Positions 14,863 through 14,980 of a stretch of 64,000 bases of DNA are shown here, in pieces; position 1 is the stretch's first letter; every line of letters starts with the position of its first letter. The stretch lies in the sequence record MF327005; one strand, written 5' to 3'. The translations under genes and the position numbers were made by a program. Below the pieces are notes generated by a model. The model did not search any database. It worked only from the letters and a program-made list of their open reading frames with translations, and had not been told where the DNA came from. Source of the DNA: Shigella phage Sf19.

Positions 14863-14980
14863 GGTCAAGACAACACTAGTAAGTCATCTTCGATACATGT
14901 TAAGAGATGAACGAAAGTCGGAAAGTTGCTGAAGGTTAGCTACCTTCGATAGTAAGTAGGTTCGACTCCTACCTTGGCTG
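14863..14980 (+). ncRNA. 118 nt tRNA-like element (perfect T-arm and acceptor-type terminal stem, CCA follows) lacking canonical D/anticodon arms
   Basis: ggtcaag...gtagg-ttcgact-cctac-cttggct-g-cca; interior ~85 nt does not fold as a type I or II tRNA by hand. Confidence 0.4.

What the first reader, a model, noticed from the sequence alone, without database searches (positions are those of the whole stretch)
14863..14980. 118 nt tRNA-like element with canonical acceptor and T-arm but no canonical core
The 3' end is a perfect T-arm (GTAGG-TTCGACT-CCTAC) followed by CTTGGCT-G-CCA, and the only sequence that pairs with that acceptor strand (GGTCAAG) lies 118 nt upstream. The ~85 nt between does not fold by hand into D and anticodon arms of a type I or II tRNA. 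It could be an intron-containing tRNA, a degenerate tRNA, or another tRNA-mimic like element D.
Basis: seen in the sequence. Interest (0 to 1): 0.5.

Follow-up and report, generated by a model that had tools for sequence, protein, structure and literature searches.

The report
Non-decoding tRNA-like RNA gene in phage
A 121-base gene in this E. coli phage's tRNA cluster has the two ends of a real tRNA but a middle that cannot read a codon, so it is most likely a small tRNA-mimicking RNA of unknown role, found only in two related phage genera.

Summary
At 14863-14983 (+) a 7-bp acceptor stem (GGUCAAG/CUUGGCU), a perfect T-arm and an encoded GCCA enclose 86 nt. ARAGORN (also in intron mode) and Rfam do not call it a tRNA.

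The window is an Ounavirinae phage. The element occurs in only 24 phage records (Suspvirus and Mooglevirus) and is unannotated in all of them. Felixounavirus lacks it as a clean ~127-nt indel directly after tRNA-Arg(UCU).

Twelve sequence variants show compensatory changes in two internal hairpins. The hairpin in the anticodon-arm position is 6 bp with a 5-nt loop, so it cannot decode. The other hairpin lies in a ~41-nt insertion between the acceptor stem and a D-loop-like segment.

Its ends follow the array's house style (U-1, G1·U72, encoded CCA), so I infer maturation by RNase P and 3' trimming.

Best reading: a structurally constrained, non-decoding tRNA mimic, architecturally like T4 species 1 RNA (rnaC); function unknown.

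Context found here: a Ro60 homologue lies 2 kb upstream, and four Y-RNA-like modules sit in the same array. The element lacks their motif, and Felixounavirus has both the protein and the modules without the element. A role as Ro60 cofactor is therefore possible but unproven.

The parts
14517..14545 (+). Sigma-70-like promoter (TTGACA-17-TATAGT) that would drive the unit: leader, tRNA-Arg, element
   Evidence: 11/12 consensus match. No + strand terminator-like site lies between it and the element. Transcription itself is inferred.
14779..14855 (+). tRNA-Arg(UCU) immediately upstream; its CCA ends 7 nt before the element
   Evidence: ARAGORN; Rfam 63.4 bits.
14856..14862 (+). 7-nt spacer AUUUAAU = 5' leader of the element, with U at -1
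   Evidence: Sequence. U at -1 is found at 21 of the 25 ARAGORN tRNAs of the array. The spacer belongs to the indel that Felixounavirus lacks.
14863..14869 (+). Acceptor-stem 5' strand GGUCAAG (element positions 1-7)
   Evidence: Only 7/7 partner of 14973-14979. Pairing is kept in all 12 variants; pair 3-70 is U-A or U-G.
14870..14884 (+). Linker ACAACACUAGUAAGU (8-22); contains the first copy of the direct repeat AGUAAG
   Evidence: Alignment A4: only positions 15 and 22 vary. AGUAA can pair with UUGCU at 64-68 (hand analysis; energy -23.7 kcal/mol). Not resolved.
14885..14909 (+). Hairpin H1 (23-47): 6-bp stem 14885-14890/14904-14909 and 13-nt loop containing the palindrome ACAUGU
   Evidence: Pair 23-47 is C-G in 6 variants and U-A in 6. 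Pair 25-45 is U-A or U-G. In most Suspvirus copies a 1-nt deletion plus G42>C keeps 6 bp. The loop palindrome becomes ACGCGU in Mooglevirus.
14910..14925 (+). Nearly invariant single-stranded segment AACGAAAGUCGGAAAG (48-63): D-loop-like with GG. AGUCGGA (14916-14922) is complementary to the T-loop
   Evidence: Only positions 48 and 61 vary across the 12 variants. RNAalifold pairs 54-60 with 99-105 as an alternative to the T-arm. The G102>A change in Mijalis fits a T-loop purine-57 and breaks that alternative.
14926..14955 (+). Arm H2 in the anticodon-arm position: UUGCU (64-68), 6-bp stem 14931-14936/14942-14947, 5-nt loop UAGCU (14937-14941), then GAUAGUAA (86-93), whose AGUAA can extend the stem
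   Evidence: Pair 74-80 is U-A in 6 variants and G-C in 6, so the loop is closed to 5 nt. KPS64 loses one nucleotide on each strand. Pair 69-85 is G-C or G-U, and pair 66-91 is G-U or A-U.
14956..14972 (+). T-arm GUAGG-UUCGACU-CCUAC (94-110)
   Evidence: Perfect 5 bp plus a TTCRANY loop. The stem is invariant. It is identical to the T-arm of the Felixounavirus tRNA-Tyr.
14973..14983 (+). Acceptor 3' strand CUUGGCU (111-117), discriminator G (118), encoded CCA (119-121)
   Evidence: The discriminator is A in CHB7.
11455..12870 (+). Context: Ro60 (TROVE+vWA) homologue, 471 aa, on the same strand, with its stop 1,993 nt upstream of the element
   Evidence: Pfam DUF2828+DUF7788. PHROG 850 'RNA-binding protein'. 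AF2 model pLDDT 89.6. The top nine Foldseek PDB hits are all Ro60 or TROVE-domain entries, E 3.5e-8 to 2.9e-6, over the full length.

Best explanation
The element is a real, lineage-restricted gene for a non-decoding, tRNA-shaped small RNA (about 121 nt) embedded in the phage's tRNA operon.

Shown:
- It has a 7-bp acceptor stem, a 5-bp T-arm and an encoded GCCA, i.e. the 12-bp coaxial stack plus RCCA that tRNA-processing enzymes read.
- Its ends match the array's own tRNAs (U at -1, G1-U72, encoded CCA).
- Two internal hairpins are held by compensatory substitutions.
- The hairpin in the anticodon-arm position has a 6-bp stem and a 5-nt loop, so it cannot present an anticodon.
- The element behaves as a cassette that is present or absent as a clean indel.

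Inferred:
- It is co-transcribed with tRNA-Arg from the promoter at 14517.
- It is released by RNase P at 14862|14863 and trimmed back to CCA like its neighbours.
- It accumulates as a stable RNA and acts by mimicry, occupying a protein that recognises the acceptor/T-arm 'top half' of tRNA without entering translation.
- Candidate partners are a host tRNA-targeting defence nuclease or a tRNA-processing or repair factor.

My split within this reading: about 0.25 for a decoy of a tRNA-targeting defence, and the rest for an undefined partner. It most probably descends from a tRNA that acquired a ~41-nt insertion between the acceptor stem and the D region.
For: Anatomy and chance.

Not a canonical tRNA.

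Structure:
- 97.5% of cells are paired, against 38-52% when partners are slid.
- The covariation score is 0.122, against 0.079 +/- 0.010 in shuffles (0 of 500 reach it).
- Among 12 variants, pairs 23-47 and 74-80 each switch on both sides. H1 in Suspvirus and H2 in KPS64 are re-compensated after indels.
- Four further stem changes are WC-wobble exchanges. Only one stem change (U68>C in KPS64) breaks a pair.
- The G-U pairs are valid only on the + strand, the strand of the tRNAs.

Energetics: enforcing acceptor plus T-arm costs only 1.0 kcal/mol relative to the MFE (-28.7 against -29.7).

House style: U-1 at 21 of 25 array tRNAs, G1-U72 in at least 8 of them, CCA encoded in all but tRNA-Ser(UGA) at 15634, which ends GCCT.

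Cassette behaviour: clean indel bounded by GCCAAT/GCCAAA after tRNA-Arg.

Precedents: T4 places rnaD (119 nt) and rnaC (139 nt, with a T-arm and a terminal stem) right after its tRNA-Arg, and their function is still unknown (PMC3014915; PMC12685909). Phage tRNAs are discussed as supplements or decoys against tRNA-cleaving defences (PMC13096335).
Against: There are no expression, end-mapping or binding data; everything after the DNA sequence is inferred.

The element's identity to relatives (93-94%) equals that of the flanking 'intergenic' stretches, so conservation alone shows no extra constraint. Paired and unpaired columns vary equally often (13/58 against 14/63).

Only 12 variants from two sister clades exist, so the double changes represent few independent events.

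The acceptor stem and T-arm show no covariation (invariant or wobble only).

The MFE z-score is only -1.0, and the MFE fold breaks the T-arm in favour of AGUCGGA/UUCGACU.

No host tRNA resembles it: there is no E. coli match at all, so no specific target of mimicry can be named.

Felixounavirus does without it.
Confidence: 0.55

Rival explanations
1. It is a Y-RNA-like cofactor of the phage's Ro60 homologue. The tRNA-like body would be the effector module and the terminal stem or internal CGAA segment the Ro-binding site. It would tether or gate Ro60, for example with host PNPase, as bacterial and phage Y RNAs do.
For: A Ro60 homologue is encoded at 11455-12870 on the same strand, with its stop 1,993 nt upstream. 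This is inside the 'within 4 kb, same strand' rule used to find YrlA RNAs (PMC4201824).

Bacterial Y RNAs mimic tRNA. M. smegmatis YrlA is cut by RNase P and receives CCA. D. radiodurans Yrn1 has its terminal stem in the acceptor position, a T-arm, an 'anticodon arm' with a short loop and no D stem (PMC4201824).

Thermus phage phiLo Ro60 binds Y-like RNAs defined by a 5'-3' stem and an internal CGAA motif (PMC12135203). The element has ACGAAAG in its near-invariant single-stranded segment.

When the element is scanned alone, the best Rfam family is YrlA (15.7 bits, E 0.53).
Against: All 25 tRNAs also lie within 4 kb on the same strand, so proximity is unspecific.

Felixounavirus has the Ro60 gene (84% identity) but not the element.

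Better partner candidates exist: four modules with a closing stem plus a UUACAGCAA motif, one with the YrlA T-AS-D layout. These recur beside Ro-like genes in Klebsiella phage KP2025 and Mycobacterium phage Nicholas. The element lacks that motif.

The YrlA score is far below gathering (69 bits). There is no bulged helix, and the leading G of GNCGAAN0-1G is missing.

The G1-U72/GGUC resemblance to the metazoan Ro site is explained by house style, since G1-U72 occurs in at least 8 of the 25 array tRNAs.
Confidence: 0.15
2. It is a decaying tRNA gene that suffered a ~41-nt insertion. It may still be transcribed and processed, but it has no function of its own and survives only because the genera diverged recently.
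For: Its conservation is the same as its flanks. Its distribution is narrow. It is lost without visible consequence in Felixounavirus. After in-silico removal of positions 8-48 ARAGORN draws a cloverleaf. Other degenerate tRNA-like units sit in the same array: a Tyr-like unit at 13596-13686 and a Trp-like unit at 15131-15208.
Against: Stem changes are overwhelmingly pair-preserving, including inside the supposed insertion (H1). None of 24 records carries a disrupted copy. Both strands of H2 were shortened together in KPS64. The cloverleaf after deletion is not statistically distinctive, because 14-18% of shuffles give one too.
Confidence: 0.12
3. It is a cis-acting processing or stability element (a 't-element'). 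The tRNA-like fold would serve only to recruit RNase P, freeing the 3' end of tRNA-Arg and defining the 5' end of the downstream conserved RNA (14984-15130).
For: It has an ideal RNase P substrate geometry (12-bp stack, U-1, G+1, GCCA). It lies between a tRNA and a strongly conserved downstream segment.
Against: In Felixounavirus the same downstream segment directly follows tRNA-Arg without the element. A processing signal needs neither H1 nor H2, yet both are maintained.
Confidence: 0.1
4. It is a working decoder: either an oversized tRNA that keeps the insertion, or one from which the insertion is removed, reading with the H2 loop (nominally anticodon AGC).
For: ARAGORN labels the in-silico spliced form tRNA-Ala(AGC) at default threshold. 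Positions 32-38 can be Watson-Crick in some real tRNA-Ala species (my knowledge). KMM2 has a purine at the nominal position 37.
Against: The 74-80 (32-38) pair covaries U-A to G-C, closing the loop to 5 nt. Position 37 is U in 11 of 12 variants. Apart from tRNA-Arg(ACG), bacteria do not use A34 tRNAs (my knowledge). The AlaRS determinant G3-U70 is absent. The phage already has tRNA-Ala(UGC). No splicing system for such a site is known in bacteria or phages. Shuffled interiors give similar calls.
Confidence: 0.05

Closest known systems
Phage T4 species 1 RNA (rnaC), and species 2 RNA (rnaD): small stable RNAs of the T4 tRNA cluster
   Same: They are encoded inside a phage tRNA cluster directly downstream of the phage's tRNA-Arg (the T4 order is tRNA-Arg, rnaD 119 nt, rnaC 139 nt). 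They are of similar size. rnaC has a canonical T-arm (CCGGG-UUCGAAU-CCCGG) abutting a terminal 5'/3' stem, plus two internal hairpins, one directly next to the T-arm. They are non-decoding and of unknown function (PMC3014915, PMC12685909).
   Different: There is no sequence or covariance-model similarity: model R1 finds nothing on rnaC or rnaD. The rnaC terminal stem is imperfect and its 3' end is not CCA. rnaD has no T-arm. Neither reduces to a cloverleaf after any single deletion, so the element is closer to a tRNA than either.
Bacterial and phage Y RNAs (YrlA, Rfam RF02553; D. radiodurans Yrn1; phiLo Yrl1/2), partners of Ro60
   Same: They are tRNA mimics encoded near a Ro60 gene on the same strand. 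They have a T-arm and D-loop-like features, and some are processed by RNase P and carry CCA. Yrn1 has its terminal stem in the acceptor position and a short-looped 'anticodon arm' (PMC4201824). An internal CGAA is present (PMC12135203).
   Different: The YrlA domain is circularly permuted (T-arm, closed acceptor hairpin, D-arm), whereas the element is not. The GNCGAAN0-1G motif near the 5' end and a bulged Ro-binding helix are absent. The Rfam score is 15.7 against a gathering score of 69. The element's distribution does not follow the Ro60 gene.
tmRNA tRNA-like domain
   Same: An acceptor stem plus T-arm plus CCA, with the anticodon arm replaced by a non-decoding helix that abuts the T-arm, and a D-loop analogue without a stem.
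   Different: There is no tag ORF, no pseudoknots and no G3-U70. It is only 121 nt long. Only the T-arm matches the Rfam tmRNA model (8.3 bits).
Canonical and class II tRNAs of the same phage array
   Same: It shares the house-style ends (U-1, G1-U72, encoded CCA). Its T-arm is identical to that of the Felixounavirus tRNA-Tyr. It has a D-loop-like GUCGGAAAG segment.
   Different: It is 121 nt long. It carries a ~41-nt insertion between the acceptor and D regions. Its anticodon-position loop has 5 nt. It is not called by ARAGORN, Rfam or tRNAscan-SE-based annotations.

Membership tests
Canonical tRNA (Rfam RF00005 / ARAGORN) | 7-bp acceptor stem, discriminator, 3' CCA | tested here: met
   GGUCAAG/CUUGGCU-G-CCA. 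This is the unique 7/7 partner, and pairing is kept in all variants.
Canonical tRNA (Rfam RF00005 / ARAGORN) | 5-bp T-stem with a 7-nt TΨCRANY loop | tested here: met
   GUAGG-UUCGACU-CCUAC at 14956-14972.
Canonical tRNA (Rfam RF00005 / ARAGORN) | 5-bp anticodon stem with a 7-nt loop (U33, purine 37) | tested here: not met
   Pair 74-80 covaries U-A to G-C, giving a 6-bp stem and a 5-nt loop. The nominal position 37 is U in 11 of 12 variants.
Canonical tRNA (Rfam RF00005 / ARAGORN) | D-arm two nucleotides after the acceptor stem; total length about 72-95 nt; model score at or above threshold | tested here: not met
   The D-loop-like segment starts 41 nt after the acceptor strand. The length is 121 nt. 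ARAGORN makes no call. The Rfam tRNA hit is 13.1 bits and partial, against a gathering score of 29.
Intron-containing tRNA | Intron in the anticodon loop (group I in bacteria and phages), or a recognisable splice structure | tested here: not met
   ARAGORN -i with introns of 0-120 nt makes no call at default threshold. No intron or ribozyme family is found in Rfam. The only excision that yields a cloverleaf lies between positions 7 and 49, and 14-18% of shuffles also yield one.
tmRNA | tRNA-like domain plus tag reading frame, pseudoknots and G3-U70 | tested here: not met
   ARAGORN tmRNA search is negative. The Rfam tmRNA hit is 8.3 bits on the T-arm only. Pair 3-70 is U-A or U-G.
YrlA / Y RNA (partner of Ro60) | Encoded within about 4 kb of a Ro60 gene on the same strand | tested here: met
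   The Ro60 homologue is at 11455-12870 (+), with its stop 1,993 nt upstream of the element. This is unspecific, because the whole tRNA array meets it.
YrlA / Y RNA (partner of Ro60) | Permuted tRNA-like domain (T-arm, closed acceptor hairpin, D-arm) and a GNCGAAN0-1G motif near the 5' end | tested here: not met
   The order is not permuted. Only ACGAAAG is present, it is internal, and the leading G is missing. The Rfam YrlA score is 15.7 bits against 69.
YrlA / Y RNA (partner of Ro60) | Physical binding to Ro60 | not testable with these tools
   Needs RIP, CLIP or EMSA with the 471-aa protein.
Phage 'stem + UUACAGCAA' modules next to DUF2828 Ro-like genes (defined here) | Closing stem AGACC.../...GGUCU with UUACAGCAA adjacent to the 5' strand and a 3' ...CUGG | tested here: not met
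   The four modules are at 13208-13275, 13371-13436, 13829-13902 and 13918-14042. The element has ACAACAC after its 5' strand and no CAGCAA.
T4 rnaC/rnaD-type stable RNAs of phage tRNA clusters | Non-tRNA stable RNA encoded in the tRNA cluster, co-processed with tRNAs | tested here: inconclusive
   Position and architecture are analogous. There is no homology. Stability and processing of the element have not been measured.

The most novel reading that the evidence does not exclude
The element is a new, non-permuted class of tRNA-shaped cofactor working with the phage's Ro60 homologue and the Y-like modules of the same operon. It might, for example, recruit a host tRNA-binding enzyme or nuclease to the Ro60 particle. 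Possibly it acts as a dimer through the self-complementary H1 loop, since ACAUGU is replaced by ACGCGU in Mooglevirus and so remains palindromic. This would form part of a phage RNA-based counter-defence against tRNA-cleaving immunity.
Probability: 0.12. Interest if true: 0.7.

Novelty: new variant of a known kind. Interest (0 to 1): 0.45.

Why it matters
Phage tRNA arrays are now seen as counter-measures against tRNA-cleaving immunity. The non-tRNA RNAs embedded in them (T4 RNA C and D, known since the 1970s) still have no function.

This element is a second, independent example, and in well-studied coliphage genera. It has a simpler, clearly tRNA-derived architecture and natural presence/absence variants: Suspvirus and Mooglevirus have it, Felixounavirus does not. 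That makes deletion and transplant experiments straightforward.

It also sits in an operon that begins with a Ro60 homologue and contains Y-like RNAs. That context could link tRNA mimicry, RNA quality control and anti-defence in one testable locus.

On the practical side, the gene is missed by all annotation pipelines in all 24 records.

Tried and rejected
1. **Standard detectors.** ARAGORN default, intron, relaxed and mitochondrial modes gave only a poor 74-nt 'Ala(agc)' with 4/7 acceptor pairs at 80% threshold; rejected. Rfam at gathering and at E<=10 gave nothing meaningful.

2. **Brute-force excision.** All 1,900 internal segments were removed in turn. A cloverleaf appears after removing about positions 8-48, but the shuffle control shows 14-18% false positives. 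I keep it only as a hint of ancestry.

3. **Wider homologues.**
   - blastn 'distant' on phages: 24 records only.
   - IMG/VR patterns: only the known phages plus chance hits.
   - L026 looked like a distant relative (R1 E=0.012), but there AGUCGG is an acceptor strand of a different small tRNA-like unit; rejected.
   - Metagenome scan: one Moogle-like contig identical to HP1.
   - GTDB genomes: none. E. coli genomes: none.

4. **Origin from a paralogous tRNA of the array.** Only the T-arm matches.

5. **Homology to T4 rnaC/rnaD.** None.

6. **G1-U72 plus GGUC/GACU as a Ro-binding-helix signature.** Rejected after finding G1-U72 in at least 8 of the 25 array tRNAs.

7. **Palindromic H2 loop (AGCU) as a kissing site.** Broken in KMM2 (UAGCG); dropped. 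The H1 palindrome is retained as an unexplained observation.

8. **Choosing between the three pairings of UUGCU(64-68).** The options are the 5' AGUAA, the 3' AGUAA, or a D-stem. The variable columns 66 and 68 do not discriminate, and energies are within 2 kcal/mol.

9. **Single-sequence AF2 of the Ro-like protein.** Unusable (pLDDT 40); repeated with a 40-sequence alignment.

10. **Long tRNA-like units with CCA beside Ro-like genes in KP2025, Nicholas, T4 and TP15.** None found.
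Full report
**1. What is there**

The window is a phage of subfamily Ounavirinae. A 1.2-kb query around the finding is 94% identical to Escherichia phage phiSUSP1 (Suspvirus). The element with short flanks (window 14856-14990) is 100% identical to phage pEC-M719-6WT.1.

ARAGORN finds 25 tRNA genes on the + strand between 13036 and 18487. The finding lies 7 nt after the CCA of tRNA-Arg(UCU).

- GGTCAAG at 14863-14869
- T-arm GTAGG-TTCGACT-CCTAC at 14956-14972
- CTTGGCT at 14973-14979
- G at 14980 and CCA at 14981-14983

GGTCAAG is the only heptamer in 14700-14950 that pairs 7/7 with the 3' strand. The composite motif is expected 0.005 times per shuffled window. The unit is 121 nt with its CCA.

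**2. It is not a callable tRNA**

- ARAGORN with default settings and with introns of 0-120 nt gives nothing.
- Rfam gives no tRNA hit at gathering. When the element is searched alone it gives a 13.1-bit partial tRNA match.
- Relatives annotated with tRNAscan-SE or ARAGORN carry no feature here.
- There is no plausible ORF.

I excised every internal segment of 20-59 nt in silico. After removal of about positions 8-48, ARAGORN draws an 80-nt cloverleaf with these parts:
- acceptor stem
- a 4-bp D-stem with one mismatch and the loop GUCGGAAAG
- arm GAAGG-UUAGCUA-CCUUC
- an 8-nt variable loop
- T-arm

However, 14-18 of 100 elements with a shuffled interior also yield a call. This is therefore a hint of tRNA ancestry, not proof.

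**3. Distribution**

- blastn at low stringency finds the element in 24 phage records only, all Suspvirus or Mooglevirus. All copies are full-length and 89-100% identical, and none is annotated.
- Felixounavirus (O157 typing phage 15) reads ...GTGCCAAT|TAGTTAGC... where the window reads ...GTGCCAATT-TAAT[element]AATAGTTAGC... This is a clean ~127-nt indel bounded by GCCAAT/GCCAAA.
- IMG/VR, a metagenome scan, a scan of GTDB genomes and all complete E. coli genomes add nothing beyond near-identical phage copies.

The element thus behaves as one cassette of the array, gained or lost as a unit.

**4. Structure**

Twelve distinct sequences exist. On the model 'acceptor, H1 (23-28/42-47), H2 with extension (64-74/80-93), T-arm', the ten-sequence alignment A4 gives the following:
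- 97.5% of cells pair, against 38-52% when partners are slid.
- The covariation score is 0.122, against 0.079 +/- 0.010 in shuffles (0 of 500 reach it).

Individual changes among the twelve variants:
- Pair 23-47 is C-G in six variants and U-A in six.
- Pair 74-80 is U-A in six and G-C in six.
- Most Suspvirus copies lost U27 and changed G42 to C, which keeps a 6-bp H1.
- KPS64 lost one nucleotide from each strand of H2.
- Pairs 3-115, 25-45, 66-91 and 69-85 alternate between Watson-Crick and wobble.
- Only U68>C in KPS64 breaks a pair.

The G-U pairs exist only on the + strand. The consequence is that the arm in the anticodon position has a 6-bp stem and a 5-nt loop (UAGCU; UAGCG in KMM2). 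It cannot present an anticodon.

Limits of this evidence:
- The acceptor stem and T-arm never covary.
- Paired and unpaired columns vary equally often.
- The element is no more conserved than its flanks (93-94%).
- All variants come from two sister clades.

The MFE fold (-29.7 kcal/mol, z = -1.0) replaces the T-arm by pairing AGUCGGA (54-60) with the T-loop UUCGACU. Enforcing acceptor and T-arm costs only 1.0 kcal/mol. The single T-loop substitution seen (G102>A in Mijalis) suits a T-loop purine-57 and breaks the alternative pairing. The partner of UUGCU (64-68) could not be resolved.

**5. How it is probably made**

The ends follow the array's house style:
- U at -1, as in 21 of 25 tRNAs.
- G1-U72, as in at least 8 of the 25 tRNAs, including the neighbouring Arg.
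- An encoded CCA after a purine discriminator.

A 12-bp acceptor/T-arm stack with RCCA is the substrate definition for bacterial RNase P (established knowledge). An 11/12 sigma-70-like promoter lies at 14517-14545, and no terminator-like site follows before the element.

I therefore infer co-transcription with tRNA-Arg, RNase P cleavage at 14862|14863 and exonucleolytic trimming to CCA. None of this is measured.

**6. Comparison with known systems**

*T4 RNA C and D.* T4 has the closest analogue by position and architecture. Its tRNA-Arg is followed by rnaD (119 nt) and rnaC (139 nt). rnaC folds into a terminal stem, two hairpins and a canonical T-arm (z = -4.45). Their roles remain unknown (PMC3014915; PMC12685909). 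There is no homology: the covariance model R1 built from the element finds nothing on them. They do not reduce to a cloverleaf after any single deletion.

*tmRNA.* Excluded: there is no tag ORF and no G3-U70, and the Rfam hit is 8.3 bits on the T-arm only.

**7. The Ro60 context**

The ORF at 11455-12870 heads the array on the same strand. It matches Pfam DUF2828+DUF7788 and PHROG 850 'RNA-binding protein'. With a 40-sequence alignment, AlphaFold gives pLDDT 89.6. The nine best Foldseek matches in the PDB are all Ro60 or TROVE-domain entries, aligned over the full length at E 3.5e-8 to 2.9e-6. They include Thermus phage phiLo, D. radiodurans Rsr, Xenopus and human. Homologues occur in 709 phage records, among them mycobacteriophage 'Ro-like RNA binding protein' genes.

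Ro60 proteins work with Y RNAs. Bacterial Y RNAs mimic tRNA and lie within 4 kb on the same strand (PMC4201824; PMC12135203). The element could therefore be a Y-like cofactor. I rate this at 0.15, for four reasons:
- Felixounavirus keeps the protein (84% identity) without the element.
- The array holds four better candidates (section 8), whose motif the element lacks.
- YrlA's defining features are not met (15.7 bits against 69; not permuted; no GNCGAAN0-1G).
- The apparent G-U/GGUC likeness to the metazoan Ro site is simply the array's house style.

**8. Noticed on the way: Y-like modules**

Four modules share three features: a 5' (AC)AGAAGACC, a UUACAGCAA motif adjacent to the 5' strand of a 7-bp closing stem, and a 3' GGUCUGG. 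They lie at:
- 13208-13275
- 13371-13436
- 13829-13902
- 13918-14042

The fourth contains a T-arm, a closed hairpin and a D-arm (GUGU-AAUGGAA-GCAC). The hairpin is ACACG/CGUGU and is compensated to ACUCG/CGAGU in Felixounavirus. This is the YrlA layout.

The same arrangement follows the Ro-like gene in Klebsiella phage KP2025 and Mycobacterium phage Nicholas. Rfam's YrlA model does not reach gathering in either locus.

All four modules give weak hits to Rfam Dicty_Class_I_RNA (15-25 bits). That family is defined by a short terminal stem plus an 11-nt motif next to the 5' strand, and is reported as unique to Dictyostelia (PMC7919456). This deserves its own follow-up.

**9. Verdict**

The best-supported reading is a structurally constrained, non-decoding, tRNA-derived mimic that is matured like its neighbours and acts through its tRNA-like top half. 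It may be a decoy for a tRNA-targeting factor or a cofactor in the Ro60/Y-RNA operon.

It is a new variant of a known kind: tRNA-like stable RNAs in phage tRNA clusters. It is of moderate interest in itself and more interesting for its context.

Noticed in passing
window 11455-12870 (+): A 471-aa ORF heading the tRNA array is a Ro60 (TROVE+vWA) homologue. It matches Pfam DUF2828+DUF7788 and PHROG 850. The AF2 model has pLDDT 89.6, and the top nine PDB fold matches are all Ro60 or TROVE-domain entries (E 3.5e-8 to 2.9e-6). Homologues occur in 709 phage records and are often embedded in tRNA arrays.
   Followed up: yes
window 13208-13275, 13371-13436, 13829-13902, 13918-14042 (+): Four small modules sit between tRNAs. 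Each has a 7-bp closing stem (AGACC.../...GGUCU), UUACAGCAA next to the 5' strand, and a 3' ...CUGG. All four give weak hits to Rfam Dicty_Class_I_RNA (15-25 bits), a family described as unique to Dictyostelia with the same stem-plus-11-nt-motif design (PMC7919456). They are probably Y RNAs of the phage Ro60 homologue. The same design follows Ro-like genes in L070 (Klebsiella phage KP2025, 7530-8000) and L071 (Mycobacterium phage Nicholas, 5460-5730).
   Followed up: partly
window 13918-14042 (+): The fourth module holds a circularly permuted tRNA-like domain. It consists of the T-arm GAAGG-UUCGAUU-CCUUC (13973-13989), the closed hairpin ACACG-UUACGG-CGUGU, and the D-arm GUGU-AAUGGAA-GCAC. In Felixounavirus TP15 the hairpin is compensated to ACUCG/CGAGU. 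This is the YrlA architecture, yet Rfam YrlA does not detect it; Rfam tRNA scores 28.8 bits on 13923-13997.
   Followed up: partly
window 13596-13686 (+): A tRNA-Tyr(GUA) homologue is missed by ARAGORN and scores only 22.8 bits in Rfam. Its T-stem has a mismatch (GTAGG/CCTTC), whereas the Felixounavirus orthologue is intact and annotated tRNA-Tyr. Tyr is thus the one amino acid with no called or convincing tRNA here, since Trp has the Rfam-positive unit at 15131.
   Followed up: partly
window 15131-15208 (+): A tRNA-Trp(CCA)-like gene has no recognisable D-arm. Rfam scores it at 32.6 bits and ARAGORN misses it. Some relatives annotate it as tRNA-Trp or tRNA-OTHER. In Mooglevirus it is replaced by a different, non-homologous tRNA-like unit that also carries a CCA anticodon, and the adjacent HNH ORF is absent there.
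   Followed up: partly
window 14984-15130 (+): A stretch conserved across Susp-, Moogle- and Felixounavirus (93% against the two relatives compared, with a long invariant core). It contains a hairpin (GACC...GGUC) and UAAGGAGGUGGUC, an almost perfect 13-nt complement of the 16S rRNA 3' end. That is followed by a 7-codon ORF (MFSRTCK) overlapping the inverted repeat CATGTT-TTCCAG-AACATG. Function unknown.
   Followed up: no
window 14517-14778 (+): A strong promoter (TTGACA-17-TATAGT) is followed by a ~230-nt leader before tRNA-Arg. The leader is as conserved as the tRNAs (93-94%). It gives weak hits to tmRNA-type models only (28.4 bits for permuted tmRNA over 14443-14629). Unexplained.
   Followed up: no
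window 14895-14900 (H1 loop of the element): The loop hexamer ACAUGU is self-complementary. In all Mooglevirus copies it is ACGCGU, also self-complementary, through two adjacent substitutions. This could indicate loop-loop dimerisation or a protein site, or it could be chance, since it represents one event.
   Followed up: partly
window 13036-18487 (tRNA array): At least 8 of the 25 tRNAs have a G1-U72 wobble as their first acceptor pair. U at -1 is found at 21 of 25, and CCA is encoded in all but tRNA-Ser(UGA), which ends GCCT. Several orthologous tRNAs are swapped for divergent versions between genera (56-71% identity for Ile, Arg, Leu, Thr) while the spacers stay at 91-96%.
   Followed up: no
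window 15216-15620 (+): An HNH homing-endonuclease ORF (PHROG 2255) lies between the Trp-like unit and tRNA-Ser. It is present in Suspvirus and Felixounavirus and absent from Mooglevirus.
   Followed up: partly
L009 (KY654690.2, Citrobacter phage Mijalis): The tRNA features in this record are offset by about 55 nt relative to the sequence, so its 'tRNA-Arg' appears to overlap the element. This is an annotation artefact, not a call on the element.
   Followed up: yes
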